A stretch of 64,000 bases of DNA, from assembly GCA_001821935.1 (NCBI GenBank), contig MHOU01000003.1:11873-75872 (forward strand), in the 5' to 3' direction. The first letter of the stretch is position 1. Every line of letters starts with the position of its first letter. Under the pieces are notes generated by a model. It worked only from the letters and a program-made list of their open reading frames with translations, made no database searches and was not told where the DNA came from. The translations under genes were made by a program, and so were the position numbers. Positions 31,135 through 51,499 of this stretch are shown here, in pieces. This DNA comes from Candidatus Staskawiczbacteria bacterium RIFCSPHIGHO2_02_FULL_43_16. GTDB taxonomy: Bacteria > Patescibacteriota > Minisyncoccia > Minisyncoccales > Staskawiczbacteraceae.

Positions 31135-31139
31135 GACAG

Positions 31140-39712: not shown

Positions 39713-39723
39713 ACTCTACTCTT

Positions 39724-39756
39724 GGGCCGAACTTGCGCGGCGGTTTTGCCGCGGCA
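39724..39756. terminator. Perfect GC-rich palindrome / terminator after the MNT gene
   Basis: GCGCGGCGGTTTTGCCGC|GGCAAAACCGCCGCC. Confidence 0.5.
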
Positions 39757-39901
39757 AAACCGCCGCCACTCCATTTTCCGCAAAAAATTAATCAATAATT
39801 TAACTAAAAAAATTACAATGGGGGAAGCTGCGCTACTACTTGGTTCTTTAACAATCCAGACCTCCCCCAACCCCTAGACACACTACACCAAAATCGGCCT
39901 C

Positions 39902-39929
39902 TTGACACCAGGCCTTGATGTGATAAAAT
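39902..39929 (+). promoter_or_regulatory. Sigma70-type promoter (TTGACA-16-TGaTAAAAT, extended -10)
   Basis: cTTGACAccaggccttgatgTGaTAAAATg at the head of the VirB-like cluster. Confidence 0.45.
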
Positions 39930-39961
39930 GAAGGCAGTACAAAAAGGGGCTTTGTCGCCCT

Positions 39962-40138
39962 GAGACGAGAATTACGAAACCCCTCGGCGGTATTTTCCCA
40001 AAATTTAGAGATAGAAGTTTGATAGAATTTTTAGGCTTAGCCAAAGGCTCCGCCTAAAAATTATAGCGAACTTATAGCCTAAATTTTGGGAAAAGACCCC
40101 GAAACTCTTTTAAAATGGGGTTTCGTAATTCTCGTCTC
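39962..40138 (+). other. Structured ~180-nt leader with nested inverted repeats (22-bp outer arms); candidate riboregulator or MITE-like insertion
   Basis: Outer arms GAGACGAGAATTACGAAACCCC (39962-39983) and GGGGTTTCGTAATTCTCGTCTC (40117-40138). Inner pairs CCCAAAATTT/AAATTTTGGG and TTTTTAGGC/GCCTAAAAA. Confidence 0.4.
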
Positions 40139-40184
40139 CCGAAATCACAGTTCTTTCACCTCCTCATTCGAAAGGGGAATTTCC

Positions 40185-40490
40185 ATGGCCATCGGCACCG
40201 CCTCTGTGCCCCAAAAAACTGGGCAAACCGATCAACTTGTCGACCTGTTCGCCAAAGCCGTGCTTTTCGCGAAAAAGCACTGGATTGCCTTCGCCTTTCT
40301 GGCGATTGCGCTCTTGTTCGTAGGCATTCCCGTCGCGGGAACAGCCACCTACTTCGGCGTCAAGGCTTTCGCGGACACGAAAGCTACCAGCCCAGAAGGA
40401 AGGGAAAAAACCCAGCAGATTGAACAAGAAGTCATGGATGGCTACAACAAAAATGGAGACAACTTGGCAAACTCGTTTAGGGTTCCATAG
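40185..40490 (+). CDS. Small single-pass membrane protein (start at MAIGTASVP; the ORF track's longer start would translate the structured leader)
   Basis: AGGGG-type RBS 8 nt upstream of ATG at 40185. TM helix WIAFAFLAIALLFVGIPVAG. First gene of the cluster. Confidence 0.4.
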   Translation: MAIGTASVPQKTGQTDQLVDLFAKAVLFAKKHWIAFAFLAIALLFVGIPVAGTATYFGVKAFADTKATSPEGREKTQQIEQEVMDGYNKNGDNLANSFRVP

Positions 40491-40503
40491 TGGAACTGCT
40501 CAA

Positions 40504-40536
40504 TAAAGACTTTGACGCCCAATCAAAGTCTTTTTT
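40504..40536 (+). terminator. Rho-independent terminator or attenuator
   Basis: AAAGACTTTgacgcccaatcAAAGTCTTTTTTC. Confidence 0.55.
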
Positions 40537-40595
40537 CATACTTAAAAATAAAAATTTCTTGCTAAAGGCTATTGCTGTGGATTACCTGTTAATTA

Positions 40596-40620
40596 TTGAC
40601 ATTCAAATTCATGATATAAT
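40596..40620 (+). promoter_or_regulatory. Extended -10 promoter (TTGACA-13-TGaTATAAT)
   Basis: aTTGACAttcaaattcaTGaTATAATg, just upstream of ATG 40619. Confidence 0.35.
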
Positions 40621-42892
40621 GAAAAAATGTTTTATGTATAAATTCCCTTCATTTATCTATCAAAATAAAAAAGCACCCCTGTTTGCTGTTTTATTATTTT
40701 TTACTCTTATAGGTCTTGTGATGCCCAACATTTCAAATGCTGCCCCTGAAGATTGCGGCGTTTTAAATGCTGTTAGTTGCAATATAGGTTATGCAGTAAA
40801 AGGACTCATTTCGCTACTTGGATATCTAGTCTTAATTGCCCAAGTGATCGTAAATCAAACACTTAAATGGATTATTGGGTTTACAATAGATCGCATTAGC
40901 TATACTAGCCTTGACCCAGTTGAAAATTCAGCAGTTGCTTTGGGGTGGCCCATCGTAAGAGATTTTGCCAATATCCTTGTGGTGCTTGGCTTTATTGCAA
41001 TAGCGCTAGCCACCATATTGCGCTTTAAAGAATATGAAGCAAAAGCCCTGTTGGCAAAACTCATAATAGCTGCTCTCTTAATCAATTTCTCTTTGATAAT
41101 ATGCGGAGTTGCAATTGACGCATCACATATAGTTATGAAAAATTTCCTAGATGTGAATCAAACATTTATGGGAGAGTTCCAGTCCTCCGCTGACGCCTTA
41201 AGTAGGGGTGTAAATAATAATGGTAGCGTCGAATCTGGCGGCGTAAGTGTAATGAGTTTTGCCTTAGTAGTTTTGTCTATGGCGGTTGTAGGAATACTAA
41301 AAACAGCCGCTTATGGCTTGTTTGCTATTTTATTTCTCTTCCGAATGATGGCACTTTGGATATTGGTCATTTTATCACCCCTGGCTTTTGTATGCTATGT
41401 TTTTCCTGCAACAAAGAAAGTATGGGATATGTGGTGGAGTAATTTTTCGCAGTGGGTCTTTATTGGTATTCCTGGAGCTTTTTTCCTTAATCTTTCTGGT
41501 CAATTAGTGGTAGCACAACTCAATAGGCCCGCTCCCTTAAATTTCACGGGGAATGGCCTTGCTGGACTTGGCAATAGCGTTGCAAATCTTTTAGGGTTTT
41601 TAGTGCCGGGAGTATTTTTAATCATTGGTTTTATTTTCTCGCTACAAATTTCGGCTATGGGTGGAACAATGGCAATTTCAACAGCCAAAAAGGTTGGTGG
41701 ATGGACCGGTAAATTTGCAACAGATAAAACACAACTAACAAGATTAAAAAATTCAGTAGTAGATAGAGCAACCTCTTTTGGCGAGAGAATAGGCGCCATA
41801 GATCAAGGAACCACCAAAGCAAGACAGGGGAATAGGCTAGAAGAGGCGAAGAAGCGACTAGCTTATGCAAAAGATGATCATGAAAAGCTTGCAGAAATTG
41901 CAGCAACGCCAATAGGAAGAATGACTTCTGAGAAAGTGCGAGAGGAAAAAGCGGCGGCGGCGGCCATGCTGGCCAAAGAGAATAAATTCAATATGATTGA
42001 TGTCAGCGAGAGAGAATCTGTTGCATCCCATGCCGTTGCTTATGGGGCCAGCAAAGATGCTATTACAAAAAATAATCCCGAACTCTTAACGGGAGCAAAA
42101 GATAAAAATCCAATATCACAGGGAATACTAAGAAAGGTGCCGGGGCTTAAAGGTGTTATGGGAAAGAAAAGATCGGCCGCAGAACAAACTGCAGAGCAGT
42201 CGCTCGTATTAGAAGAAAGAGCAACGCTGGAGGCAGCGGGAACCAGCCCGGAAGAAGCAAAAAGATTGGCAGAACACCGCACGTTCTCTGATCTTGAAGT
42301 TAAAGTAGCTCAACAGAAAATACACGAAAACACTGTCAGGCAGAGGGCTTTAGGATATTCTCCAACATCCGAAAAAGAAGTACGTAACAAAGCTATTGAT
42401 GATAGGCTGGAGAACGAAAAAGATGGCATGAAAAATGTAGTAAGACTTCAAAATGTTGGTGCCACAGATAAGCAGGTGGAAATTTTGCTAGAGGAAGAAA
42501 TAGCAAGAAAGAAGAAAGAATACCAGCAAACATACATCCCATCTGCTTCAGCCACTATACAAGCCAAGGAACATGCTATCAAAGAAAAGGTAGCGAAAAC
42601 AGTAGGGAAATTATCCCCCTCCAAAGCTGCAGAGCTTCCTAAAGAGGCAATATCAGCCCAGGTGCTCTCAGTTCTAAGCGACAGCCAGATAGAACAAATT
42701 GGAAAGCGAGGTGGACCAAACCTAGTTAGCGAGATTAAAAAATATGTACGAGATACAAGCAAGTCACTCGCAGACCAGTCTCAAGAGTTTAAAGATATTC
42801 GAGCTCTGCTTTTAACATTGCCCGCCGGCTCACCAGAACGCATGCGTATTGGTGAAATCATGAGAAAAATACGACGACCTGACTTTAAGTAA
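40619..42892 (+). CDS. Large polytopic membrane protein with a long C-terminal coiled-coil; VirB6/TrbL-like candidate (start at MKKCFMYKF)
   Basis: Signal-peptide-like N-terminus, then at least six TM helices spread over ~400 aa (for example ILVVLGFIAIALATIL, LIIAALLINFSLIICGVAI, ALWILVILSPLAFVCYVF, VPGVFLIIGFIFSL). Hydrophilic K/E-rich tail. Similarity to VirB6/TrbL is by topology only. Confidence 0.45.
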   Translation: MKKCFMYKFPSFIYQNKKAPLFAVLLFFTLIGLVMPNISNAAPEDCGVLNAVSCNIGYAVKGLISLLGYLVLIAQVIVNQTLKWIIGFTIDRISYTSLDPVENSAVALGWPIVRDFANILVVLGFIAIALATILRFKEYEAKALLAKLIIAALLINFSLIICGVAIDASHIVMKNFLDVNQTFMGEFQSSADALSRGVNNNGSVESGGVSVMSFALVVLSMAVVGILKTAAYGLFAILFLFRMMALWILVILSPLAFVCYVFPATKKVWDMWWSNFSQWVFIGIPGAFFLNLSGQLVVAQLNRPAPLNFTGNGLAGLGNSVANLLGFLVPGVFLIIGFIFSLQISAMGGTMAISTAKKVGGWTGKFATDKTQLTRLKNSVVDRATSFGERIGAIDQGTTKARQGNRLEEAKKRLAYAKDDHEKLAEIAATPIGRMTSEKVREEKAAAAAMLAKENKFNMIDVSERESVASHAVAYGASKDAITKNNPELLTGAKDKNPISQGILRKVPGLKGVMGKKRSAAEQTAEQSLVLEERATLEAAGTSPEEAKRLAEHRTFSDLEVKVAQQKIHENTVRQRALGYSPTSEKEVRNKAIDDRLENEKDGMKNVVRLQNVGATDKQVEILLEEEIARKKKEYQQTYIPSASATIQAKEHAIKEKVAKTVGKLSPSKAAELPKEAISAQVLSVLSDSQIEQIGKRGGPNLVSEIKKYVRDTSKSLADQSQEFKDIRALLLTLPAGSPERMRIGEIMRKIRRPDFK

Positions 42893-42910
42893 AAATAGAA
42901 TAATTTAATC

Positions 42911-43849
42911 ATGCAAGAAAATAACGAACAAAAAATAGTATTTCCAGATAATACTTCGGGGATAATTTCAGATATCCTAAGAAAACACGGCATCAAAGAT
43001 ACCGATCAAGAAATTGAGGATAAACTATTTGGAGAAAATAATGAGCCCTTGAAAGAAGAGGCTATATTAAATTCGGCGATAGAGGTTATTAACGGAAAAA
43101 CACAAAAGGAGAACTTGGCTACTTTATTACAAAAAGAATTAAAGGTGCCATTGCCAACAGCAGAGGATATAGCGAAAGTTATAGAAGAAAAAATCATTAA
43201 CCTGTCTAAAAGAGTTTCTGCGGAAGAATGGGCAAAGGGGAGATTAAAAGATACTATATATAAAGAAGAATCAGACGAATCGTTAAATGCAAAGATAATT
43301 TTTGAATTGCCAGAAACTACCATAATAGAGAAAATTATCAATGAAATACTAAAAGATAATAATTTAGAAGAAAGCAGTGATGAAGCTTCAAGAAAATCAA
43401 CGCAAGGTGGTGAATCAAGGGCAATTATATTGAAAGATACTATCTCGGTTGTTTTACAGAAAAAAATACCTGATGAAAAATTAGTTGAATTTTTAGTAAA
43501 ACATCTTGAAATCTCTGAAGAGGTTGCTATGAAAATAATACGGGCCATACACGAAAAAATCATTACTTTTGCAAAAATAACGAATGCAAATGAAGAAAAT
43601 TCTGTTTACGATAAAGAAAAATATAAGGAAGCGTTATTAAATAAAATACGTGGAAATAAAAGCACTGCTGGTGCAAATAAAGAAGCGTCTGCTATGCCCT
43701 ACAAAAAAAATCCTAGCATTACTGATGTAGAAGATAATGCTGAAGCCATGCAAAAAGAAAATAAGTTGATCATTCCAAATAGTGAAAAACTAGCACCTCA
43801 GCAGAAACAGGAGAAACAACCAGACCCATACAAAGAAGCTATTGAATAG
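42911..43849 (+). CDS. Hypothetical acidic coiled-coil protein
   Basis: 312 aa, E/K/I-rich. No family recognised. Confidence 0.5.
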   Translation: MQENNEQKIVFPDNTSGIISDILRKHGIKDTDQEIEDKLFGENNEPLKEEAILNSAIEVINGKTQKENLATLLQKELKVPLPTAEDIAKVIEEKIINLSKRVSAEEWAKGRLKDTIYKEESDESLNAKIIFELPETTIIEKIINEILKDNNLEESSDEASRKSTQGGESRAIILKDTISVVLQKKIPDEKLVEFLVKHLEISEEVAMKIIRAIHEKIITFAKITNANEENSVYDKEKYKEALLNKIRGNKSTAGANKEASAMPYKKNPSITDVEDNAEAMQKENKLIIPNSEKLAPQQKQEKQPDPYKEAIE

Positions 43850-43864
43850 CATTTATAAATAAAG

Positions 43865-43893
43865 AAAGGTTGGACTTATGTCCAACCTTTTTG
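43865..43893. terminator. Bidirectional rho-independent terminator
   Basis: aaAGGTTGGACttatGTCCAACCTttttg. Confidence 0.75.
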
Positions 43894-43895
43894 CG

Positions 43896-45131
43896 TTATT
43901 TCCCCCCTTTCAAATCAAACAATTCATCTTCATCATCATCGTCATCGTCGTCATCCTTGGGTGGTCGCGGTTTTTGGCCTCCCTTTTTGCCTTTGCGATT
44001 CTTTCCACCGCCCTGGTTTTGGCCACCTCCAGACCCACCGACCAAAATGCCCGTACCACCAGTTCCACCCCCAACAACTGCGGTGGTAGCGTTTTCAAGC
44101 CCCTTGATGTGGACTTGTTGATATCCGGGAGTCTTGGCAAGAGACCGCTGACGAAGCTCTTCCTGCTTTTCACGAATCTGGTCTGGAGTAGCATTGGGGT
44201 GGGCTTCCCGCCAAGTTTTCAAAGCTTGGTTGGTGTCATCAAACAATATGGCGCTTGCTTCTGCTTGATGTTTAGCGGCCTCTTTCTCTCTCTGCGCTTT
44301 GTAGGGCGCGAGAGTGGTGGCACGCCAATCTGGTGGTGGGTCAACATTTCGAAGTTGGACTGACTTGATTTTGATACCGTAAAGATTAAGTAGTCCGTCC
44401 AAAACCGAATCCTTGTCACCTTCCTTGTTGTTCAGTCTTTCCCACAAGCGCGTAGAGAAAGTTTGCAGTTCCTGCTCCTCCTTCTTATTCCGCCCAACGA
44501 TATCATCGTCATACGAAACTTGAGCCAGAACGTTGCGGAAGCAAGGCATGACCTCGCTGTTCACAATTGAGTACCAGTCGCTTGCCTTAAAAAAGGCCTT
44601 ACCGTAATCCTCAATAACACCAATGACCGCCAAAGTGCCGGACAGGGGCAAGCCATGGCTATCCTCTTCATCTTGAAAGGGGAGAGCGTAGGGGTAGTCA
44701 GTAGTCTTAAAGCTACTGATGTCCGGGTCATCATGAGGCTCGGCTTGAGCCCTGCCGTCTTTGTCAGTCACACTCTTGAAAAACGTCATCTTGCGTTTGT
44801 AAAGAGAGTGGGTGCCGGGCAGACCAATCCATCTCAGTCCGGGTCCAATGGTTTTTCCATAGTCTCCCCAGACCAGAACAATCTTACACCAACCTTTGTC
44901 CACGATGGTCCACAGGATGTTTGCTTTGGCTAGGAAAAAAACAAGGTAATATCCTGCCCCAGGAGCAATCAACCCAAGCGAAAAGATGAGCCAACCGAGC
45001 CAGGTGAACGAATCCCAGTCGACGATGAAAATCACCGCTAAAAGGATTGCAAGAACTGCCACAAAAGACCAGAAAGTTACCGACCGAAGAATGGAGCGAA
45101 ACATGGCTATTTCCTTCCAGAAAATTCCCAA
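43896..45131 (-). CDS. SPFH/band-7 (stomatin/prohibitin/HflK-like) domain membrane protein with a Gly-rich, poly-Asp C-terminal tail; GC-rich gene
   Basis: Two N-terminal TM helices. SPFH core …IKSVQLRNVDPPPDWRATTLAPYKAQREKEAAKHQAEA…. Tail …GGGTGGTGILVGGSGGGQNQGGGKNRKGKKGGQKPRPPKDDDDDDDDEDELFDL. Base composition is visibly GC-richer than the neighbours. Confidence 0.65.
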   Translation of the reverse strand: MGIFWKEIAMFRSILRSVTFWSFVAVLAILLAVIFIVDWDSFTWLGWLIFSLGLIAPGAGYYLVFFLAKANILWTIVDKGWCKIVLVWGDYGKTIGPGLRWIGLPGTHSLYKRKMTFFKSVTDKDGRAQAEPHDDPDISSFKTTDYPYALPFQDEEDSHGLPLSGTLAVIGVIEDYGKAFFKASDWYSIVNSEVMPCFRNVLAQVSYDDDIVGRNKKEEQELQTFSTRLWERLNNKEGDKDSVLDGLLNLYGIKIKSVQLRNVDPPPDWRATTLAPYKAQREKEAAKHQAEASAILFDDTNQALKTWREAHPNATPDQIREKQEELRQRSLAKTPGYQQVHIKGLENATTAVVGGGTGGTGILVGGSGGGQNQGGGKNRKGKKGGQKPRPPKDDDDDDDDEDELFDLKGGK

Positions 45132-45312
45132 TTAAATGTTCTGCCCCAAGCAGAGTTTAATGGGAAAAGATAGTTTTCAAAGGACGACCCAGAACATCTG
45201 GGTTAATACTTAACCATATCATACTCATACGCCCTTGTCAATAGTGAATAATCTGTGCGCTTGCCAAGTGTTTTAATATGCTATAATTATCTATTAATTA
45301 GGAAATAATAAC

Positions 45313-45352
45313 GTAGCCGCCTAGACCCTAACCCCTAGACCCTACACCCTAA
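45313..45352. repeat. CTAGACCCTAACCCCTAGACCCTAYACCCTAA-family intergenic element (copy 1)
   Basis: cgcctagaccctaacccctagaccctacaccctaagc. Related copies at 48858-48900 (inverted), 49266-49306, and 52025-52062 (inverted, adjoining (TTTAGGG)6). Confidence 0.65.
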
Positions 45353-45355
45353 GCA

Positions 45356-45781
45356 ATGCCTCAATATCCCATTCCACAATTTATAGAAGAAGAGGGCAAA
45401 ATCATTTCCTTCCTCACCTTCCGGCAGTTTTGGTGGCTGGTGGGTGGCGGGGCGGTTATTGTTTTACTGTATTATATTTTGCCGTTTTATTTTTTCATTT
45501 TGACGGCACTTTTGGTGGCGGCCCTGGTGGGCACCATCGCCTTTGTGAAAATTAACAACATGTCACTGATAAAAATATTTTTGAACTTTTTAGGGTTTAG
45601 CCTGGGCGCCAAAACCTACACCTGGGAACGCAAAGAAACGCCGCGGAATAACGCAGAATCTTACGCGGAAAAACGCGGAATAAAAAACATCCCAGAGACT
45701 CTTGCGCGACCGCCCTTAAACTCAACTTTACGACCCAGCAGATTACAACAGATACAGAAAATAGTAGAAACAAAGCGATAA
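45356..45781 (+). CDS. PrgI/VirB3-like small membrane protein
   Basis: MPQYPIPQFIEEEGKIISFLTFRQFWWLVGGGAVIVLLYYIL… matches the PrgI-family N-terminal pattern (IPxxxxxxxKIxgxfTxRQfxxL). Two TM helices. A VirB4-like ATPase lies downstream. Confidence 0.5.
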   Translation: MPQYPIPQFIEEEGKIISFLTFRQFWWLVGGGAVIVLLYYILPFYFFILTALLVAALVGTIAFVKINNMSLIKIFLNFLGFSLGAKTYTWERKETPRNNAESYAEKRGIKNIPETLARPPLNSTLRPSRLQQIQKIVETKR

Positions 45782-45847
45782 TTTGATTATCGCCGCGAAA
45801 CGAAGCGAAATCTTACGCGGAAAGACGCGGAATAAAACGAATACAAT

Positions 45848-46246
45848 ATGTTATTATATGAAAAAGAGTCATATAAAATTAGGAAGGCAGTATTTAATGT
45901 TTACAAAGAATTGGGATGCGGCCACAAAGAAACCGTTTATCAAAAAGCGTTTTACATAGCGCTACTAAAAGAAGAATTAAAAATAGAAAAAGAAAAACGC
46001 CTGCCAGTAATATTTGATGGCGCCAATGTCGGCACATATATTCCAGATTTCCTTATTGAAGAAGCCATTATTGTTGAACTAAAATCCAAATCATTTATTA
46101 CCAAAGAAGACACATTGCAATTCTGGCAATATCTTAAAAGCACAAACTATAAGTTAGGTTTTTTAATAAATTTCGGCATACCCGGCAAAGCACAAATCAT
46201 TCGGCGCGTGTATGATACAGCAAGAAATAATTCACTAAACTATTAA
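45848..46246 (+). CDS. GxxExxY-family (PD-(D/E)xK-like) protein; cassette flanked by inverted CGCGGAAT repeats
   Basis: …LPVIFDGANVGTYIPDFLIEEAIIVELKSKSFITKEDTLQFWQYLKSTNYKLGFLINFG… matches the GxxExxY family. Flank 45815-45845 is tcttacgcggaaagacgcggaataaaa (a direct copy also lies at 45656-45690 inside the upstream CDS). Flank 46250-46300 is ttccgcgtgattccgcgttaatttccgcgcgattccgcg (inverted). Confidence 0.7.
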   Translation: MLLYEKESYKIRKAVFNVYKELGCGHKETVYQKAFYIALLKEELKIEKEKRLPVIFDGANVGTYIPDFLIEEAIIVELKSKSFITKEDTLQFWQYLKSTNYKLGFLINFGIPGKAQIIRRVYDTARNNSLNY

Positions 46247-46303
46247 AGGCTTTCCGCGTGATTCCGCGTTAATTTCCGCGCGATTCCGCGAAAATCCATC
46301 ATC

Positions 46304-46966
46304 ATGGATTCCGCTACACAGGATTTTTTAGAAATCAAAGACATCCGCGAGGGGGTTTTGGTGTTGAAAAATAACGGCTTGCGGGGAATTTTGATGGTTT
46401 CTTCCTTGAATTTCGCCTTAAAATCTTCCGAAGAACAGTCTTCCATTATTTACGCCTATCAGAGTTTTTTAAATTCCCTGGATTTTTCCTGCCAAATTGT
46501 CATCCAATCACGCAATGTCAACATCACCCCCTATTTGGACACGGTTAAAAACTTGGCAGAAAAACAAACCAATGAATTGCTGAAAGTGCAAACTTCTTCA
46601 TACGCGGATTTTATCAAAGAACTGGTACAGGGTGATAACATCATGACCAAAAGTTTTTACGTGGTGGTCCCCTACACCTTGACCGAGGCGTTAGGGGCGG
46701 GGGCGGCCCTTAATAAATCTGGCTTATTTGATATTTTTAAAAAAAATAAAAACAAAAACCAACAGCTGGGCGATGAAGATTTTGAAAAATGCAAAAACCA
46801 GCTGTGGCAAAGGATGGAATTCTTGGCTATGGGACTAAAACGCTGCGGGCTGGATGTCATGCCCCTGACCACCCCGGAACTGATTGAACTGTTTTGGGCC
46901 ATGCACCACCCCGACCAAGCAGAAGTGGGATATTACCCGGAAATACTGCCTGAATTATTGAAATAA
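46304..46966 (+). CDS. Hypothetical protein resembling the N-terminal region of VirB4-type ATPases (no NTPase motifs)
   Basis: LEIKDIREGVLVLKNNGLRGILMVSSLNFALKSSEEQSSIIYAYQSFLNSL… parallels the N-terminus of the next gene (IINIRDIIAPPYIGIGQDSIKLGEK…FFIFSYPRYLNTGWLSPAINL…). Confidence 0.45.
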   Translation: MDSATQDFLEIKDIREGVLVLKNNGLRGILMVSSLNFALKSSEEQSSIIYAYQSFLNSLDFSCQIVIQSRNVNITPYLDTVKNLAEKQTNELLKVQTSSYADFIKELVQGDNIMTKSFYVVVPYTLTEALGAGAALNKSGLFDIFKKNKNKNQQLGDEDFEKCKNQLWQRMEFLAMGLKRCGLDVMPLTTPELIELFWAMHHPDQAEVGYYPEILPELLK

Positions 46967-46968
46967 AT

Positions 46969-47077
46969 TTTTAATTTCCAATTTTTAAATAATTTTTTAA
47001 TGTTAAAATTTATAAAATACCACGCGCTTAAAAATTAGCAAATTAAAATATTATTTAAAAATTGGAAATTAAAAATT
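46969..47077. repeat. AT-rich palindromic element, core TAATTTCCAATTTTTAAATAAT with its inverted copy ~55 nt away; second locus at 60433..60500
   Basis: tttttaatttccaatttttaaataat … attatttaaaaattggaaattaaaaatt. The same 22-nt core and inverted partner occur at 60433-60500. Confidence 0.65.
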
Positions 47078-47084
47078 AATAGCT

Positions 47085-48872
47085 ATGGCATTTTTTAAGA
47101 AAAAAATTGAAGCTGAAGAAAAGATTTTTGAGCAGGAGACCATCAACATCCGCGACATCATTGCCCCGCCCTACATTGGTATTGGACAGGATTCCATAAA
47201 ACTGGGCGAAAAGATTGCCAAGTCTTTTTTCATCTTTTCGTATCCGCGCTACTTAAACACGGGCTGGCTTTCACCTGCCATCAATTTAAATGTGCCCATG
47301 GACATTTCCTTTTTCATCCACCCAGTTTCCAGCCAACTTATCTTAAAAAAATTACGTTCAAAAATTACCCAGGTGTCTTCAGAATTAATAGAGCGGCAGG
47401 AAAAGGGGTTGATCCGCGATCCCGCTCTTGAAACCGGCTACCAAGACATTGAAAACCTACGGGATAAAATCATCACCGCCCAGGAAAAAATGTTCCGCTT
47501 CGGGTTGTATATTACGGTTTATGAAGATACTCCGGAAAAGTTAAAAGAAACCGAAAGCACCTTCCGGTCTATTTTTGAATCGCGGCTGATTTACATCAAG
47601 CCAGCTATCTTTAAACAAAAAGAGGGCTTTATATCCACCAGCCCTTACGGCATGGATTTGCTGGACGTAAACGTGCCCATGGACACCGAACCGCTTTCCA
47701 CCACCTTCCCATTCGTTTCCTTTGACCTAAGCAGCAATGAAGGCATTTTATACGGCATCAACCGCCACAATAATTCCTTAGTGTTATTTGACCGTTTCAC
47801 GTTAGAGAATGCAAATATGGTTGTCTTCGCTAAATCAGGATCCGGTAAGAGCTACGCCATAAAATTGGAAATTTTGCGCTATTTGATGTGGGGCGTAGAT
47901 GTGATTGTCATTGACCCGGAAAACGAATATGAATTTTTGGCAGACGGGGTGGGGGGTGACTTCTTTAAAATTTCCCTTACTTCGGGCAACCATGTCAACC
48001 CCTTTGACCTACCGGTGCCCGGCCCGGACGACAGCCCCGAAGATATTTTGCGCTCAAACATCATTAACCTGGTGGGGCTGCTGCGCATCATGCTGGGCGG
48101 CTTAACCGCCGAAGAAGACAGTATTTTAGACCAAGCCATCACAGAAACTTACGCCGTACGTGACATTACCCCGCAGAGCGACCCGGCCAAATGGCAGGAG
48201 AACATTCCCATCATGTCTGATTTTGCCGAAGTGTTGGAAAACATGACCGGGGCCGAAAGCCTGGCCCGACGCCTTAAAAAATTCACCACCGGAACCTTTG
48301 GCGGATTCTTCAACCAAAGGTCAAACCTTAAAATTGATAAGAATTTTATTGTCTTTGGCATTCGTGACATGGAAGAATCGCTCAAAACCATCGCCCTGTA
48401 TATCATTATGCGCTATGTTTGGAACATTGTGCGCACTAATTTGAAAAAGCGAATTTTGGTGGTGGACGAGGCTTGGTGGCTAATGCAATCTGAAGATGGC
48501 GCTTCATTTTTGTTTGGTCTGGTCAAGCGCGGCCGCAAATATTGGCTGGGGGTTACCACCATCACCCAAGACATTGAAGACTTCATGCGCTCAAGCTACG
48601 GCAAAGCCATTATTACTAATTCTTCACTGCAACTATTACTTAAACAATCTCCGGCGGCCATTGAAATACTGCAAAAAACCTTTGACCTGACCGAACAGGA
48701 AAAAATGCTTTTGACCGAGGCTTCGGTAGGCGAAGGGCTCTTTTTTGCCGGCAAAAAACATGTCTTTATGAGTGTTAAAGCCAGCTACACCGAAGACCAG
48801 ATTATTACCACCAACCCCGGTGAAGTGGAAAAAATCAAAGAAGCGCGAAGACAATTAGGGTCTAGGGGATAG
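47085..48872 (+). CDS. VirB4/TrbE/PrgJ-family type IV secretion ATPase
   Basis: VirB4-type N-terminus. Walker A VVFAKSGSGKSYAIK. Walker B RILVVDEAWWLM. C-terminal …GKKHVFMSV…. 595 aa. Confidence 0.75.
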   Translation: MAFFKKKIEAEEKIFEQETINIRDIIAPPYIGIGQDSIKLGEKIAKSFFIFSYPRYLNTGWLSPAINLNVPMDISFFIHPVSSQLILKKLRSKITQVSSELIERQEKGLIRDPALETGYQDIENLRDKIITAQEKMFRFGLYITVYEDTPEKLKETESTFRSIFESRLIYIKPAIFKQKEGFISTSPYGMDLLDVNVPMDTEPLSTTFPFVSFDLSSNEGILYGINRHNNSLVLFDRFTLENANMVVFAKSGSGKSYAIKLEILRYLMWGVDVIVIDPENEYEFLADGVGGDFFKISLTSGNHVNPFDLPVPGPDDSPEDILRSNIINLVGLLRIMLGGLTAEEDSILDQAITETYAVRDITPQSDPAKWQENIPIMSDFAEVLENMTGAESLARRLKKFTTGTFGGFFNQRSNLKIDKNFIVFGIRDMEESLKTIALYIIMRYVWNIVRTNLKKRILVVDEAWWLMQSEDGASFLFGLVKRGRKYWLGVTTITQDIEDFMRSSYGKAIITNSSLQLLLKQSPAAIEILQKTFDLTEQEKMLLTEASVGEGLFFAGKKHVFMSVKASYTEDQIITTNPGEVEKIKEARRQLGSRG

Positions 48873-48900
48873 GGTTTAGGGTCTAGTAAAACCAAAAACG
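48858..48900. repeat. CTAGACCCTAA-family element (inverted copy), left flank of the four-helix-bundle cassette
   Basis: aattagggtctaggggatagggtttagggtctagtaaaac. Confidence 0.6.
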
Positions 48901-48910
48901 CAACATCCTG

Positions 48911-49267
48911 ATGTTAAAATCACATAAAGAACTTATTGTTTGGCAAAAATCTATTAAATTAGTAAAGGAAATTTATATTCTTACTAGTAACTTTCCTCAA
49001 AATGAGATTTATGGACTATCTTCTCAAATGAGACGCGCGGCGGTATCTATACCATCAAACATTGCCGAAGGATATTCAAGAAAGAACATAAAAGAGTATT
49101 TACAGTTTTTAAGGATCAGCTTTGGATCTTCCACAGAACTGGAAACACAAATAATTATTGCAAAAGATTTATACAAAAGCGTGGATTATAAGCCCGCCGA
49201 ATTATTACTAGAAGAAGTATTGAAAATGTTAAATACTATGATAGAAAAATTAGAAAATAACGCGTAG
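48911..49267 (+). CDS. Four-helix-bundle protein (the family formerly called '23S rRNA intervening-sequence protein')
   Basis: …WQKSIKLVKEIYILTSNFPQNEIYGLSSQMRRAAVSIPSNIAEGYSRKNIKEYLQFLRISFGSSTELETQIIIAKDL… matches the family consensus. Confidence 0.7.
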   Translation: MLKSHKELIVWQKSIKLVKEIYILTSNFPQNEIYGLSSQMRRAAVSIPSNIAEGYSRKNIKEYLQFLRISFGSSTELETQIIIAKDLYKSVDYKPAELLLEEVLKMLNTMIEKLENNA

Positions 49268-49306
49268 CCGTCTAGACCCTAACCCCTAGACCCTATACCC
49301 TAAAGC
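49266..49306. repeat. CTAGACCCTAA-family element, right flank of the four-helix-bundle cassette
   Basis: tagccgtctagaccctaacccctagaccctataccctaaagc. Confidence 0.6.
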
Positions 49307-49310
49307 AGAG

Positions 49311-49742
49311 ATGAAAAATTTGACGTCGCCAGAGGCAATTTTAATACTACCCATAGCAGTGGTGCTAGATTTGGTGGGTTTTATTATATTTTGCCTGGGA
49401 ACTTGGGTTGGCATTGACGACTATGGTATACTTGAAATAATCGGGGGGGCGATTATTGGGCTATGGATGATATTGCGGGGCAGCGGCAGTTCCGTGGGCC
49501 AGCAAAAAAGTGCAGAGCCCCAAGAAAAACCGGTGCCGCCCAAAAAAGAACTATCAACGGATAAAAATACCCTGGCGCCTAAAGCTAAAACCCTGCAAGC
49601 GAAAGATTTGGTAAAAAATCCAAAGGAATTCGCAAAAAAAACCTTTAAAACCTTTATTTGGAATTATATTGTAGAGTTAATTCCTTTTGTCGGGGGATTT
49701 TGGCCGGGGTGGACCATTATTGTTTATAAAACACTAGATTAA
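49311..49742 (+). CDS. Hypothetical membrane protein (three to four TM helices)
   Basis: ILILPIAVVLDLVGFIIFCLGTWVGI, ILEIIGGAIIGLWMIL, C-terminal ELIPFVGGFWPGWTIIVY. Confidence 0.5.
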   Translation: MKNLTSPEAILILPIAVVLDLVGFIIFCLGTWVGIDDYGILEIIGGAIIGLWMILRGSGSSVGQQKSAEPQEKPVPPKKELSTDKNTLAPKAKTLQAKDLVKNPKEFAKKTFKTFIWNYIVELIPFVGGFWPGWTIIVYKTLD

Positions 49743-51436
49743 TGAAGAGAAATTATTCAATATATATCTTGTTATTTGCGGCAACCATGTTGCTGGTTTC
49801 AATGGCTCAACCGGCGCTGGCACTTGAAGTAACTTATCCTAAAATAGGGACTTTTGAAATAACCTCAGACTCAACCCTGCTTCAATATATAGAATATTTT
49901 TTTGCTTTTGCCATTGCTATATCCGGCATACTGGCAGTTGTTATTTTGGTTATTTCCGGCCTGCAAATACTGGTATTTGCGGGCAGCCCGGAAAAAATAA
50001 ATGAAGCCAAAGAAGGCTTATGGGCCGCAGTTTTGGGGATTGTCCTTTTATTTGCTTCTTTTATTATTATGATGACGATTAATCCCAACCTTGTTAACCC
50101 CAGCACCCAAGCACTACCCCAATCTGACCCTGATGGGGTATTTTTAGATGTTCAATATACTCAGATAACATTTGAAGGTTTCCCTAATCCTGGGCGCGGC
50201 CCCTGCACTGAAGCTCGGTGCAAAAAAACATTTCTCGCCCCGCAAGAGAATCCAAGCATAGGAGAAACCACAGATTTTTCATACAATACCGGTGTTTCAG
50301 CATTTGGCATGGCGACAATGCATGGCGATACTGCAACAAGCCGTATTAGATATAGGTGCACCCCGCCCACCAGCGGCAAAGATGGCACCAGGCTTATGGT
50401 TTCGGTATATGCTAACAAAAATTTTCAAATAGATCGAATTGCCAATGGGGTTGGCGGCAATGTAAGAACATATTTTTTAAAATGCAATAAGAATGACAAT
50501 AATTTTGTCATTGTAGATGCAGGTGTTGTAGAATCTTATAAGTGGGAATATGAAAAACCTGGCGTTTATTTTTATTTAAAAGAAAATTGCCAGGAAAACC
50601 CGGTAACCACTGGACTTACAAGTGCCACGGGCGCGAGCTATACCAGCATAAACTCTAAATTATATACTGGAAGTTCAATAATAGAGCCTTTTGATTGCGA
50701 AGTTGGTGGAGGTGGTGATGATTGGGGCGAAGGGAATGATACTAATACGAACACGTGTCAACCCAGACAAGGCGTACTCCAGGTGCCCACCTGCATGAGA
50801 ATTGTAAATAGTGAACAAGAACAATACGGGACTATTTTAAACCAAAGCGAAGCGGCTGTTGGAGCGTGTACCGAACCTATTTTAAATAAAGATATTCCCA
50901 CTGGTAATGAAATAATAAAAGAAGTTTCTAAGCCTGTACCAACTTTTAATGAATCGCCGAATAATGAGGGTCCCAAATTTGCCTATGTGTTCAAGCATGT
51001 TCCGGCAGATAAATACCCATCCGGAGAAATCAGGTTTGAAAGCGCAGCTACCTATAATGAAGTACTGCCGAATGACTTCACGCTCGAAAACAAGCGCCTT
51101 TACCATTTGCCTGATCTTTATGGTGGAAGCCTTAATTATTTTATTAAAGCAGGGTATCTCCTAAATCCCAACACCACCCCCCTTCCAGAAGAATGTGATA
51201 CCAGTAAAGAGTGTTTGAAATTTATAAGGTCACCCCGTACCGGAGCTTTCAGAACAGTGCTTTATAGTGAAGATGAAAACGGTTTTCGCGATAATGTTTG
51301 CCAAGTGTATACTTGCCAAGAAAATAACTTTGGTGAATTTGTATCAAACAATAATCGTTGGATTTTCAATTCCAGAAGAAAGGTATATGACATGTTTATT
51401 ATTCCCATGCCCAAGCAAACTTGCGACAGGTCATAA
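49742..51436 (+). CDS. Large secreted/membrane protein: signal peptide, two pilin-like (VirB2/TrbC-like) TM helices, then a ~430-aa Cys-containing extracellular domain
   Basis: MKRNYSIYILLFAATMLLVSMAQPALA. Then FFAFAIAISGILAVVILVISGLQILVFAGSPEKINEAKEGLWAAVLGIVLLFASFIIMMTI. Large hydrophilic domain. A strong terminator follows. Confidence 0.5.
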   Translation: MKRNYSIYILLFAATMLLVSMAQPALALEVTYPKIGTFEITSDSTLLQYIEYFFAFAIAISGILAVVILVISGLQILVFAGSPEKINEAKEGLWAAVLGIVLLFASFIIMMTINPNLVNPSTQALPQSDPDGVFLDVQYTQITFEGFPNPGRGPCTEARCKKTFLAPQENPSIGETTDFSYNTGVSAFGMATMHGDTATSRIRYRCTPPTSGKDGTRLMVSVYANKNFQIDRIANGVGGNVRTYFLKCNKNDNNFVIVDAGVVESYKWEYEKPGVYFYLKENCQENPVTTGLTSATGASYTSINSKLYTGSSIIEPFDCEVGGGGDDWGEGNDTNTNTCQPRQGVLQVPTCMRIVNSEQEQYGTILNQSEAAVGACTEPILNKDIPTGNEIIKEVSKPVPTFNESPNNEGPKFAYVFKHVPADKYPSGEIRFESAATYNEVLPNDFTLENKRLYHLPDLYGGSLNYFIKAGYLLNPNTTPLPEECDTSKECLKFIRSPRTGAFRTVLYSEDENGFRDNVCQVYTCQENNFGEFVSNNNRWIFNSRRKVYDMFIIPMPKQTCDRS

Positions 51437-51450
51437 AAATGTTGGTGACT

Positions 51451-51487
51451 AAAAGCGCTCCGATGCCCATCGGAGCGCTTTTTTATT
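51451..51487. terminator. Bidirectional rho-independent terminator
   Basis: aAAAGCGCTCCGATgcccATCGGAGCGCTTTTttatt. Confidence 0.75.
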
Positions 51488-51499
51488 ACTGATTTGGTT

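What the first reader, a model, noticed from the sequence alone, without database searches (positions are those of the whole stretch)
39902..51490. VirB/Prg-like (type IV secretion-like) gene cluster adjacent to the replication origin; possible ComB-like DNA-uptake or host-interaction apparatus
The plus-strand module contains, in order: a promoter and structured leader; a small membrane protein; a polytopic VirB6/TrbL-like protein with a coiled-coil tail (40619-42892); an acidic coiled-coil protein; a PrgI/VirB3-like protein (45356-45781); a VirB4-N-like protein; a VirB4 ATPase with intact Walker A and B (47085-48872); a membrane protein; and a 564-aa secreted protein with VirB2-pilin-like helices (49742-51436). 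Another pilin-like gene lies at 30616. No relaxase, VirD4 coupling protein or VirB11 is seen in the window. The same neighbourhood encodes comEA-LTD, comM and a pilB-like ATPase. This fits a minimal Gram-positive-type conjugation-derived system, possibly used for DNA uptake as with Helicobacter ComB, or for cell-cell interaction.
Basis: partly seen in the sequence, partly recalled or inferred. Interest (0 to 1): 0.7.

Follow-up and report, generated by a model that had tools for sequence, protein, structure and literature searches.

The report
Known Patescibacteria type IV secretion cluster
This is the chromosomal, relaxase-free type IV secretion gene cluster that nearly all ultrasmall Patescibacteria (CPR) carry next to their replication origin; it was described in 2023-2025, so the finding is correct but not new.

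Summary
Window 39902-51490 encodes a type IV secretion (T4SS) module. Its parts are an extended VirB6, PrgI/VirB3, a split VirB4 (TrsD-like N-domain gene plus a Walker A/B ATPase gene), a conserved membrane protein, and a 564-aa protein with a VirB2-like pilin hairpin. PrgI, VirB4 and the pilin domain pass curated HMM cut-offs. The 64-kb window holds no relaxase, coupling protein or VirB11.

The window comes from a Candidatus Staskawiczbacteria (Parcubacteria/Paceibacteria) chromosome. The order comM-M23-ksgA-VirB6-PrgI-TrsD-VirB4-pilin-jag-yidC-rnpA-dnaA-dnaN recurs in dozens of related genomes. VirB4 is as conserved as DnaA.

This is the Patescibacteria T4SS already published (Wang 2023 Cell; Quinonero-Coronel 2025), which is essential for epibiotic growth in Saccharibacteria and of unknown mechanism. 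I read it as a non-conjugative host-contact apparatus.

- an SPFH gene on the minus strand;
- two inserted small genes (GxxExxY nuclease-like, 23S-IVP-like);
- the "structured leader" is one copy of a dispersed ~188-nt palindromic repeat, not a T4SS-specific leader.

I did not find the following in the papers I read:
- in this lineage the pilin domains are fused to large Cys-rich or adhesin-like ectodomains;
- two unannotated families (an acidic protein ending in D-x-Y-R-E-P, and a small membrane protein) and an SPFH/Band 7 protein recur with the system.

The parts
39902..39929 (+). Sigma-70-like promoter (TTGACA, 16 nt, TAAAAT, with extended TG) upstream of the first operon
   Evidence: 11 of 12 matches, the best site in 39600-51700. 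This is a consensus match only; activity was not shown.
39955..40141 (+). It is one copy of a dispersed intergenic repeat family and is not specific to the T4SS.
   Evidence: Fold energy -109 kcal/mol, z = -9.35. No Rfam family matches. The covariance model finds 47 or more sense copies in L003, L004 and 44 metagenome contigs, with unrelated flanks and random orientation. 93% of cells are paired, and 65 of 71 pairs show changes on both sides.
40086..40490 (+). Small ORF with one hydrophobic segment. Unverified as a gene; if real, it more likely starts at the ATG at 40185.
   Evidence: No family hit. No homologue in 81 related loci. Unrelated to the conserved membrane family A3. Its 5' part overlaps the hairpin repeat.
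40634..42892 (+). Extended VirB6/TrbL-like polytopic membrane protein: signal-like N-terminus, about 7 TM helices, and a ~360-aa helical hydrophilic tail
   Evidence: P0121 is identical at 752 aa. 23 of 45 homologues hit PF04610 TrbL. AF2 pLDDT is 78.5. Foldseek's five best PDB hits are R388 TrwI/VirB6 (7o3v_F: E 0.033, prob 1.0, TMt 0.49). Present in 54 related loci.
42911..43849 (+). Acidic soluble helical protein of a conserved, unannotated family. Its C-terminus carries the family's invariant D-x-Y-(R/K)-E motif, and the helical domain is duplicated in this copy.
   Evidence: Found in 48 related loci, between VirB6 and PrgI wherever both were mapped. Alignment A4 has D305, Y307 and E309 invariant. 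No convincing Pfam or PDB match. The motif is confined to this family within the loci.
43863..43892 (.). Bidirectional terminator-like hairpin between the first operon and the convergent SPFH gene
   Evidence: 13-bp stem with T-runs on both strands.
43896..45131 (-). SPFH/Band 7 membrane-scaffold protein with two N-terminal TM segments and a Gly-rich, poly-Asp tail.
   Evidence: PF01145 E 2.7e-8, 34.5 bits against a gathering score of 23.6. Found on the minus strand in 23 related loci, between VirB6 and PrgI wherever those were mapped. A promoter-like site lies at 45241-45213 on the minus strand.
45356..45781 (+). PrgI/VirB3-like small membrane protein
   Evidence: PF12666, 34.6 bits against 27. 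Present in 72 related loci, immediately upstream of TrsD in the loci mapped by tblastn.
45848..46246 (+). GxxExxY / PD-(D/E)XK_3 protein. An intruding small gene, not part of the T4SS.
   Evidence: PF13366 E 3.7e-33 and TIGR04256. A homologue lies near the cluster in only 1 of 80 loci, and PrgI and TrsD are adjacent in most relatives.
46304..46966 (+). TrsD-like protein, equivalent to the N-terminal domain of VirB4 encoded as a separate gene
   Evidence: NF041427 TrsD E 6.8e-9, and N-terminal positions of two VirB4 models. Present in 77-78 of 80 loci directly upstream of VirB4. The literature reports TrsD in 2,221 Patescibacteria assemblies.
47085..48872 (+). VirB4 ATPase (the remainder of the N-domain plus the C-terminal ATPase domain) with intact Walker A and B
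   Evidence: 8000 homologues of about 600 aa, and every organism name in the list of the best 120 is a Patescibacteria lineage. Median identity to relatives is at least that of DnaA.
48911..49267 (+). 23S rRNA-intervening-sequence-family four-helix-bundle protein. An intruding small gene, not part of the T4SS.
   Evidence: PF05635 E 7e-36. Absent at this position in the closest relative L081, where VirB4 abuts the membrane protein. Found at other positions of the cluster in 8 loci, with up to 81% identity.
49311..49742 (+). Conserved small membrane protein of an unannotated family: an SPEG-x-IML motif, two TM helices, a variable charged linker, and a conserved C-terminal hydrophobic segment E-x-x-P-x-x-G-x-x-P-x-W-T
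   Evidence: Found in 39 loci, almost always directly downstream of VirB4. Alignment A3. No Pfam or PDB relative.
49742..51436 (+). Secreted protein with a signal peptide, a VirB2-like pilin helical hairpin (aa ~46-113) and a 440-aa beta-rich ectodomain with 14 cysteines, of orphan fold
   Evidence: PF18895, 32.4 bits against 26.6. AF2 gives two helices for the pilin part, but overall pLDDT is 47.7, so the ectodomain fold is unknown. The ectodomain has only 37 relatives among 1.84 billion representatives, nearly all 460-580 aa long and matched downstream of the pilin-domain position. Paralogous pilin-fusion genes occupy this position in about 60 loci.
51451..51482 (+). Strong intrinsic-terminator-like hairpin that ends the second operon
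   Evidence: 14-bp stem with 7 GC pairs, followed by a T-run.
36936..38021 (-). LysM + peptidase M23 cell-wall hydrolase. A candidate functional counterpart of VirB1, syntenic with the cluster.
   Evidence: Conserved upstream of ksgA and VirB6 in 30 loci. The literature notes M23/LysM-containing VirB1-type hits associated with virB4 in Paceibacteria. Its role is inferred.
30616..31134 (+). 172-aa second pilin-like protein: signal peptide, a ~65-aa N-terminal segment with 8 cysteines, and a C-terminal VirB2-like hairpin. It is flanked by tRNA-Arg and tRNA-Lys.
   Evidence: PF18895, 22.3 bits, below the gathering score. Local jackhmmer E 9e-13. Sequence. tRNAs.

Best explanation
The cluster is the vertically inherited chromosomal T4SS of Patescibacteria, here in a Candidatus Staskawiczbacteria (Paceibacteria) genome. 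It derives from the monoderm MPF-FATA conjugation machinery but is no longer a conjugation system.

Shown here:
- Two plus-strand transcription units. The first encodes VirB6 and an acidic protein. The second encodes PrgI/VirB3, TrsD, VirB4, a small membrane protein and a pilin-domain protein.
- A convergent SPFH gene lies between the two units.
- The cluster sits between ksgA and jag-yidC-rnpA-dnaA.
- No relaxase or coupling protein lies within 64 kb.

Inferred mechanism:
- The extended VirB6 forms the membrane channel or platform.
- PrgI/VirB3 together with the two-piece VirB4 (TrsD plus the ATPase) form the energising complex. As in other T4SSs, this complex would extract VirB2-like pilin hairpins from the membrane.
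- The pilin-domain proteins (the 564-aa protein and perhaps the 172-aa one) are polymerised into, or inserted at the end of, a short surface fibre or stalk that crosses the wall. The neighbouring LysM-M23 hydrolase may help open the wall.
- This fibre displays Cys-rich, disulfide-stabilised ectodomains that bind the host cell.
- The apparatus then serves as a contact-dependent conduit between the epibiont and its host. The direction (export of effectors or import of host molecules) is unresolved.
- The function is essential and housekeeping-like rather than gene transfer.
For: Identity of the system:
- Curated-threshold HMM hits for PrgI, VirB4 and the pilin domain, and consistent TrsD hits.
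- VirB6 is supported at the family and fold level.
- The window's VirB4 is 100% identical to a Candidatus Staskawiczbacteria protein.

Vertical, core-gene behaviour:
- The same gene order, embedded between comM/M23/ksgA and jag/yidC/rnpA/dnaA/dnaN, recurs across loci whose VirB4 is 52-86% identical.
- Median VirB4 identity (78% and 65% in two distance bins) is at least that of DnaA (76% and 56%).
- Walker motifs are intact.

Not conjugative:
- No relaxase, T4CP or VirB11 appears in any scanned ORF of the window.
- The literature reports relaxases in only 103 of 3,035 Patescibacteria genomes, and VirB4 phylogeny tracks taxonomic class.

Host-interface role:
- Pilin hairpins are fused to 200-2000-aa Cys-rich ectodomains in about 60 loci.
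- One close relative's fusion protein carries InlB B-repeats and SpaA-like, Ig and fn3 adhesin modules.
- The ectodomain is an orphan: 37 relatives among 1.84 billion representatives. It diverges faster than VirB4, at 59% against 94% identity in the closest relative.
- In Southlakia epibionticum the T4SS genes, including the pilin array, are essential for epibiotic growth, while comEC is dispensable.
Against: - No experiment exists for any Paceibacteria T4SS. Essentiality is known only for one Saccharibacterium.
- No pilus or channel has been visualised.
- No VirB8-like subunit was found.
- The window's own VirB6 does not reach any HMM threshold, and its structural match is modest (E 0.03, TM 0.49).
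- The ectodomain model is unusable (pLDDT 47.7), so 'adhesin' rests on a paralogue in another genome and on composition.
- RnpA (56%) and the small membrane protein (45%) diverge as fast as the pilin protein in the closest relative. Fast evolution of the ectodomain is therefore not by itself evidence of host-driven selection.
- The rest of the genome was not searched for a relaxase or T4CP.
Confidence: 0.75

Rival explanations
1. A DNA-uptake T4SS in the manner of Helicobacter ComB or archaeal Ced. The VirB2/3/4/6 core would import host or environmental DNA, for nucleotides or for transformation, feeding ComEA, ComM and the recombination genes nearby.
For: - The system lacks a relaxase and a T4CP, as ComB does.
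- comM (35362-36882), comEA-LTD (60498-61514) and ruvABC-type genes lie in the same 64 kb.
- Reviewers have raised this idea for Saccharibacteria.
- In the ABY1 class, T4SS genes co-localise with comF, recG and radA.
Against: - In S. epibionticum, deleting comEC abolishes transformation without loss of viability, whereas the T4SS is essential. The essential role is therefore not ComEC-linked DNA uptake.
- The window's VirB4 scores only 46 bits against CedB (cut-off 700) and 17 bits against CedD.
- The ComB7-10 equivalents are absent.
- Adjacency of comM to ksgA is simply conserved core synteny.
- A separate type IV pilus/competence ATPase exists at 63301-63936.
Confidence: 0.12
2. A conventional integrated conjugative element (or its mating-pore module) whose relaxase and coupling protein lie outside the window.
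For: - VirB4 belongs to the CD1110/MPF-FATA family typical of Firmicutes ICEs.
- NCBI names it 'conjugal transfer protein TraC'.
- A serine recombinase/Prim-Pol island lies at about 2.7-11.7 kb in the window.
Against: - The gene order is fixed between core housekeeping genes in dozens of genomes, with no integrase or att-like boundaries.
- VirB4 is as conserved as DnaA.
- No relaxase or T4CP lies within 64 kb.
- The literature finds relaxases in about 3% of genomes and almost no inter-class transfer of VirB4.
- The recombinase island is more than 28 kb away and has no T4SS genes.
Confidence: 0.03
3. A decaying remnant: a once-conjugative system interrupted by selfish genes (GxxExxY, IVP, a palindromic repeat) and no longer functional.
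For: Two unrelated small genes and a repeat element sit inside or just upstream of the operons. VirB4 is split into two genes.
Against: - All reading frames are intact and the insertions lie between genes.
- The TrsD/VirB4 split is ancestral and found in 77-78 of 80 loci.
- Walker motifs are intact and identity to relatives is very high.
Confidence: 0.03

Closest known systems
Patescibacteria-clade T4SS (Southlakia epibionticum SEML1_0006-0019, Wang et al. 2023 Cell; survey by Quinonero-Coronel et al. 2025 Microb Genom)
   Same: It has the VirB4 + TrsD + PrgI/VirB3 + VirB6 + VirB2-like pilin repertoire and no relaxase or T4CP in the cluster. It is chromosomal and lies next to dnaA, dnaN, rnpA and ksgA, as reported for Paceibacteria. 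An M23/LysM hydrolase is nearby (searches compared).
   Different: - This copy has a single pilin-domain gene in the cluster rather than an array of six, and that gene is fused to a 440-aa Cys-rich ectodomain.
- It also has an SPFH gene, an acidic D-x-Y-R-E-P protein and a small membrane protein as conserved companions. I did not find these described in the text of those papers; their supplements were not checked.
- It carries two intruding small genes and a repeat element.
MPF-FATA conjugative T4SSs of Firmicutes (CTn2 CD1110 type; the pGO1 Trs system with TrsD; pCF10 Prg)
   Same: VirB4 passes the CD1110-family cut-off. There is a separate TrsD-like N-domain gene as in pGO1, and a PrgI-type VirB3.
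   Different: There is no relaxase, no T4CP, no recognisable VirB8-like protein (PrgL/TcpC) and no PrgB-type adhesin. It has VirB2-like pilins, which Gram-positive systems lack. It is fixed in the chromosome and vertically inherited.
Helicobacter pylori ComB DNA-uptake T4SS
   Same: A T4SS core with VirB2-, VirB3-, VirB4- and VirB6-like parts that works without a relaxase or coupling protein.
   Different: ComB is a diderm VirB-type system with ComB7-10. No sequence-level kinship beyond the generic VirB4 family was seen here. Published genetics in Saccharibacteria separate T4SS essentiality from ComEC-dependent uptake.
ERIC/IRU, Correia, RUP and other MITE-like palindromic intergenic repeats (comparison for the 39955-40141 element only; from my own knowledge)
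   Same: It is a dispersed intergenic element of about 130-190 nt, in either orientation. It folds into a long imperfect hairpin, and its copies keep pairing through compensatory changes.
   Different: It shows no sequence similarity to any Rfam family. It has been seen so far only in Staskawiczbacteria-like groundwater and sediment contigs. No associated transposase was identified.

Membership tests
Patescibacteria-clade T4SS | VirB4 ATPase with intact Walker A and B | tested here: met
   conju_CD1110 scores 359.6 bits against a cut-off of 325, and P-loop_TraG scores 88.6 bits. AKSGSGKS is at aa 249 and ILVVDE at aa 457.
Patescibacteria-clade T4SS | A separate TrsD-like (VirB4 N-domain) gene next to virB4 | tested here: met
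   46304-46966 hits TrsD at E 6.8e-9 and the N-terminal positions of two VirB4 models. It is conserved in 77-78 of 80 loci.
Patescibacteria-clade T4SS | PrgI/VirB3 homologue near virB4 | tested here: met
   PF12666 scores 34.6 bits against 27.
Patescibacteria-clade T4SS | VirB6/TrbL-like polytopic protein near virB4 | tested here: inconclusive
   The window copy has no HMM hit of its own. However, 23 of 45 homologues hit PF04610, and the AF2 model's best PDB matches are TrwI/VirB6 (E 0.033, TMt 0.49). Membership is probable.
Patescibacteria-clade T4SS | VirB2-like pilin gene(s) near virB4 | tested here: met
   PF18895 scores 32.4 bits against 26.6 in 49742-51436.
Patescibacteria-clade T4SS | No relaxase or T4CP associated with the cluster | tested here: met
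   None appears among the probable genes of 100 aa or more scanned from the 64-kb window. The rest of the genome was not examined.
Patescibacteria-clade T4SS | Chromosomal position near dnaA, dnaN, rnpA and ksgA (the Paceibacteria pattern) | tested here: met
   for the window. The same order is found in related loci. Reported in the literature.
Patescibacteria-clade T4SS | VirB4 falls in the monophyletic Patescibacteria clade nested in MPF-FATA | not tested
   No tree was built. Proxies: every organism name given in the list of the best 120 hits is a Patescibacteria lineage, at 78-100% identity, and the best curated model is the MPF-FATA CD1110 family.
Patescibacteria-clade T4SS | Required for epibiotic growth | not testable with these tools
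   Shown only for S. epibionticum by Tn-seq.
Conjugative MPF-FATA T4SS / ICE | Relaxase and type IV coupling protein | tested here: not met
   No MOB, TraG/VirD4 or TcpA family hit in the window.
Conjugative MPF-FATA T4SS / ICE | Mobile-element boundaries (integrase, att sites, variable insertion site) | tested here: not met
   The position between core genes is fixed in dozens of genomes. The only recombinase in the window is more than 28 kb away.
Conjugative MPF-FATA T4SS / ICE | VirB8-like subunit (PrgL, TcpC or TraM type) | tested here: not met
   No Pfam, NCBIfam or PDB-profile hit for any cluster protein. Structure-level similarity was not tested for the small proteins.
ComB / Ced DNA-import systems | Membership of the CedB/CedD or ComB-type families, and the ComB7-10 envelope subunits | tested here: not met
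   CedB scores 46 bits against 700 and CedD 17 bits against 600. No VirB7-10-like proteins are present.
ComB / Ced DNA-import systems | DNA uptake depends on the system | not testable with these tools
   The literature shows comEC-dependent transformation is dispensable while the T4SS is essential in S. epibionticum.

The most novel reading that the evidence does not exclude
In Paceibacteria the T4SS 'pilins' may not be simple fibre subunits. They may instead be modular host-recognition proteins: a VirB2 hairpin that VirB4 loads into a short pilus or stalk, fused to large, rapidly diversifying, disulfide-rich adhesin ectodomains (1-4 paralogues per genome, up to 2,000 aa and 87 cysteines). The secretion machine would then double as a display system for host-range determinants. 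In the same reading, three uncharacterised conserved companions would be lineage-specific subunits: the acidic protein with the invariant C-terminal D-x-Y-R-E-P peptide, the small membrane protein after VirB4, and an SPFH scaffold.
Probability: 0.3. Interest if true: 0.6.

Novelty: already known. Interest (0 to 1): 0.3.

Why it matters
The Patescibacteria T4SS is one of the few machines known to be essential for the epibiotic lifestyle of a group estimated to make up about a quarter of bacterial diversity. Its substrate and its direction of transport are unknown.

This locus adds no new kind of system. It is a clean Paceibacteria example of the published one. What may be useful to specialists is the comparative detail gathered here:
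- the pilin domains of this lineage are fused to large Cys-rich or adhesin-like ectodomains;
- two unannotated families and an SPFH/Band 7 protein recur with VirB4;
- VirB4 is as conserved as DnaA.

These points give concrete candidates for host-specificity determinants and for missing subunits, such as a VirB8 substitute.

Tried and rejected
- **Ectodomain structure.** The AF2 model of the 564-aa pilin protein, built from an 8-sequence alignment, gave pLDDT 47.7. That is too poor for a fold search, so the ectodomain fold stays unknown.
- **Two accessory families.** Pfam and PDB-profile searches of the small membrane protein family (A3) and the acidic family (A4) gave only noise-level hits. 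The weak Rep_fac_C hit (E 0.006) appears in only one member and was rejected.
- **The hairpin as a known RNA.** I considered a 6S-like or other known RNA, or an operon-specific leader or attenuator, for the 39962-40138 hairpin. Rfam at gathering and at E<=10 gave only spurious miRNA-precursor matches. The flanks of 47 copies are unrelated and orientation relative to neighbouring genes is random, so a T4SS-specific leader is rejected.
- **The small ORF 40086-40490.** I tested it as a paralogue of the conserved membrane family that sits upstream of VirB6 in L012 and L020. It is not one.
- **The D-x-Y-R-E-P peptide as a general secretion tag.** Within the 81 loci it occurs only in that one family.
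- **Fast ectodomain evolution as evidence of positive selection.** RnpA and the small membrane protein diverge as fast in the closest relative. I make no such claim.
- **TrsD against the PDB by sequence.** There was no meaningful hit.

Full report
**1. What is in the sequence**

The region 39.9-51.5 kb contains a plus-strand gene set interrupted by one minus-strand gene. HMM scans against Pfam and NCBIfam gave hits above the curated thresholds for three proteins:
- PrgI/VirB3 (45356-45781): PF12666, 34.6 bits against 27.
- VirB4 (47085-48872): NF045971 conju_CD1110, 359.6 bits against 325; P-loop_TraG, 88.6 bits.
- A T4SS pilin domain at residues 50-109 of the 564-aa protein (49742-51436): PF18895, 32.4 bits against 26.6.

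The VirB4 gene aligns to positions 172-732 of the 752-position CD1110 model. The upstream 220-aa gene (46304-46966) aligns to positions 6-134 of the same model, to positions 104-242 of the mycoplasma VirB4 model, and to TrsD (E 6.8e-9). Together the two genes therefore make up one VirB4. Walker A (AKSGSGKS, aa 249) and Walker B (ILVVDE, aa 457) are intact. The closest solved structure is the VirB4 C-terminal domain 4ag5 (E 3e-40).

The large polytopic protein is identical to database protein P0121, whose gene call starts at 40634. It has no HMM hit of its own. However, 23 of 45 aligned homologues hit TrbL/VirB6 PF04610. An AF2 model (pLDDT 78.5) has the R388 TrwI/VirB6 chains as its five best PDB matches (E 0.033, probability 1.0, TM 0.49 on the target). 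It is best described as an 'extended VirB6' with a ~360-residue helical tail.

- an SPFH/Band 7 gene on the minus strand (43896-45131; PF01145, E 2.7e-8);
- a GxxExxY PD-(D/E)XK gene (45848-46246);
- a 23S-rRNA-IVP-family gene (48911-49267).

**2. Organism and context**

The VirB4 is 100% identical to a protein of Candidatus Staskawiczbacteria (Rifle groundwater). It has thousands of ~600-aa homologues, and those in the best-120 list are 78-95% identical; every organism name given in that list is a Patescibacteria lineage.

The rest of the window is ordinary chromosome: infB, rbfA, RNase Y, clpP, trigger factor, H+-PPase, nusA, pnp, comM, an M23/LysM hydrolase, ksgA, then the cluster, then jag-yidC-rnpA, dnaA, dnaN, a class A PBP, ruvC, yebC, comEA-LTD, ruvB and a pilB-type ATPase fragment. 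Three of the four perfect DnaA boxes in the window lie at 53338-55038. None of the ORFs scanned matches a relaxase, a VirD4/TraG/TcpA coupling protein or VirB11.

**3. Comparative evidence**

A scan of species-representative genomes returned 80 loci whose VirB4 is 52-86% identical. By tblastn and local iterative searches, the order comM - M23(-) - ksgA - VirB6 - [acidic protein] - [SPFH(-)] - PrgI - TrsD - VirB4 - [small membrane protein] - pilin-domain gene(s) - jag(-) - yidC(-) - rnpA(-) - dnaA - dnaN recurs throughout.

| Component | Related loci with it |
|---|---|
| TrsD | 78 |
| PrgI | 72 |
| VirB6 | 54 |
| Acidic family | 48 |
| Small membrane family | 39 |
| SPFH | 23 |

The GxxExxY gene (1 locus), the IVP gene (8 loci, at varying positions) and the HEPN/nucleotidyltransferase pair upstream (0 loci) are sporadic. 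In the closest relative (L081), VirB4 directly abuts the membrane protein, with no IVP gene between them. These are therefore insertions, not subunits.

Median identity of VirB4 to the window copy (78% and 65% in two distance bins) equals or exceeds that of DnaA (76% and 56%), and far exceeds that of YidC, KsgA or RnpA. This is the signature of a vertically inherited gene under strong constraint, not of a mobile element.

**4. Prior knowledge**

All of this has been published.
- Wang et al. 2023 (PMC10633639) showed by Tn-seq that the T4SS cluster of Southlakia epibionticum, including its pilin array, is essential for epibiotic growth. They noted the Gram-positive-like composition, the pilins, and the lack of a relaxase and coupling protein.
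- Quinonero-Coronel et al. 2025 (PMC12102498) surveyed 3,035 genomes. VirB4 is present in 2,417 of them and forms a monophyletic Patescibacteria clade nested in MPF-FATA. TrsD is in 2,221 assemblies. PrgI/VirB3, VirB6 and VirB2-like pilins lie near virB4. Relaxases occur in only 103 genomes. In Paceibacteria the cluster lies close to dnaA, dnaN, rnpA and ksgA.
- A 2025 review (PMC12857230) summarises these points. It stresses that comEC is dispensable whereas the T4SS is essential.

The finding is therefore correct but already known. The function remains 'completely unknown' according to a 2024 perspective.

**5. Details gathered here that I did not find in those texts**

(a) Pilin fusions. 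In about 60 related loci, the space between VirB4 and jag holds 1-4 genes. Each has an N-terminal ~120-aa pilin hairpin fused to a 200-2000-aa extension that is usually rich in cysteine, with up to 87 Cys.
- The window has one such gene (564 aa, 14 Cys).
- It also has a distant 172-aa gene in which an 8-Cys segment precedes the hairpin.
- The window's ectodomain has only 37 detectable relatives among 1.84 billion representative proteins, nearly all 460-580 aa long and matched downstream of the pilin-domain position.
- Its AF2 model is unusable.
- A paralogue in a close relative (L006, 1520 aa) carries four InlB B-repeats plus SpaA-like, Ig and fn3 domains, which are typical adhesin modules.
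- With the usual VirB2 topology (my knowledge: both termini outside, loop inside), either type of extension would be extracellular.

(b) The acidic protein. It belongs to a family with one helical domain (duplicated in the window copy), a variable linker and an invariant C-terminal D-x-Y-R-E-P-I-E peptide. Within the loci that peptide occurs only in this family.

(c) The small membrane protein after VirB4. It forms a conserved family with no Pfam or PDB relative.

(d) The SPFH gene. It is a frequent companion. A scaffold role in assembling the machine is plausible by analogy with flotillin-assisted secretion systems (my knowledge) but is untested.

**6. The 'promoter and structured leader'**

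The promoter-like site at 39902-39929 is the best in the region. The downstream hairpin (39962-40138) is very stable. However, it is one copy of a dispersed repeat.
- Homologous copies lie between dnaA and dnaN in L003 and elsewhere in L004.
- A covariance model built from three copies finds further copies in L003.
- A pattern scan found 44 metagenome contigs with the element, several of them with 2-4 copies.
- Copies are intergenic, in either orientation relative to neighbouring genes, and have unrelated flanks.
- Pairing is kept in 93% of cells, with changes on both sides at 65 of 71 pairs. Caveat: that alignment was fitted to the model and includes antisense rows.
- No Rfam family matches.

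It resembles MITE/ERIC-type palindromic repeats and is not a T4SS-specific regulatory leader, although it may still affect expression of the operon it sits in.

**7. Mechanism and rivals**

I commit to a non-conjugative, host-contact apparatus. In this reading:
- VirB6 is the membrane platform.
- PrgI with TrsD and VirB4 is the energising complex that extracts pilin hairpins from the membrane.
- Pilin-domain proteins are assembled into a short surface fibre or stalk that displays disulfide-rich ectodomains toward the host.
- The LysM-M23 hydrolase helps passage through the wall.
- The structure mediates a contact-dependent exchange needed for growth.

The composition, synteny and conservation are shown. 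The assembly steps and the host-binding role are inferred.

| Rival | Main points | Confidence |
|---|---|---|
| ComB/Ced-like DNA uptake | Compatible with the missing relaxase. Disfavoured by the Saccharibacteria genetics and by the lack of family membership. | about 0.12 |
| Conventional ICE | Refuted by fixed core synteny, DnaA-like conservation and the absence of mobility genes. | about 0.03 |
| Degenerate remnant | Refuted by intact frames and motifs and by the ancestral nature of the TrsD/VirB4 split. | about 0.03 |

**8. Verdict**

- Observation: confirmed.
- Novelty: already known.
- Interest: 0.3, for a specialist mainly because of the pilin-ectodomain fusions and the unannotated conserved companions.

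Noticed in passing
window 39955-40141 (+); also L003:17023-17207(-), L003:4069-4191, L003:20879-21066, L004:1171-1359, and L082-L125: A ~188-nt rod-like palindromic repeat family with conserved blocks GAATTACGAAA / TTTGATAGAATT / AATTATAGCG / TTTCGTAATTC. It is multi-copy in Staskawiczbacteria-like genomes (up to 4 copies per ~12 kb), intergenic, in either orientation, and has unrelated flanks. Compensatory covariation is strong: 93% of cells paired and 65 of 71 pairs changed on both sides. It matches no Rfam family. It looks MITE/ERIC-like, but the mobility mechanism and any RNA role are unknown.
   Followed up: yes
window 45848-46246 and 48911-49267; L004:3095, L007:8377, L005:7751 and others: Small GxxExxY (PD-(D/E)XK_3) and 23S-rRNA-IVP-family genes sit between T4SS genes. 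The IVP gene appears at different positions of the same cluster in different genomes, with up to 81% identity, which suggests that these small genes move.
   Followed up: partly
window 38979-39712: An overlapping HEPN + minimal nucleotidyltransferase gene pair (toxin-antitoxin-like) lies between ksgA and the T4SS promoter and is followed by a perfect 15+15-nt palindrome at 39737-39766. It is absent from all 80 related loci.
   Followed up: no
window ~2683-11700: A probable integrated element next to tRNA-Cys and tRNA-Leu (2619-2789). It holds a large serine recombinase (2683-4485, minus strand), an 844-aa Prim-Pol/NrS-1-like polymerase (6620-9154) and several ORFs with no family hit. It has no T4SS or relaxase genes.
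   Followed up: no
window 12707-12838 (-): A LOOT RNA motif (RF03000) scores 58.3 bits against a gathering score of 46.4. It overlaps the annotated 5' end of the alpha/beta-hydrolase ORF 11804-12844, whose Pfam domain starts only at about residue 86. The ORF may therefore start later, with the RNA lying upstream of it.
   Followed up: no
window 30516-31213: The second pilin-like gene (172 aa; an 8-Cys N-terminal segment followed by a VirB2-like hairpin) is sandwiched between tRNA-Arg(tcg) and tRNA-Lys(ctt), 19 kb from the cluster.
   Followed up: partly
L006:8069-12631; L055:11821-18108; L069:11889-15560 and about 60 other loci: Giant pilin-hairpin fusion proteins (up to 2,095 aa and up to 87 cysteines) lie downstream of VirB4. 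The L006 protein carries InlB B-repeat, SpaA-like, Ig and fn3 domains. The number (0-4) and size of these genes vary widely between close relatives.
   Followed up: partly
window 60498-61514 (-): ComEA-type helix-hairpin-helix DNA-binding domains are fused to a lamin-tail domain (LTD).
   Followed up: no
window 47085-48872 compared with 53359-54816, across L001-L080: VirB4 is at least as conserved as DnaA across Paceibacteria relatives (median 78% against 76%, and 65% against 56%). PrgI, VirB6 and the pilin proteins diverge to about 30%.
   Followed up: yes
L012:4615-4923 and L020:2556-2927: In two relatives, a member of the small membrane family that normally follows VirB4 lies instead just upstream of VirB6. 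This is the position that the unconserved ORF 40086-40490 occupies in the window.
   Followed up: partly
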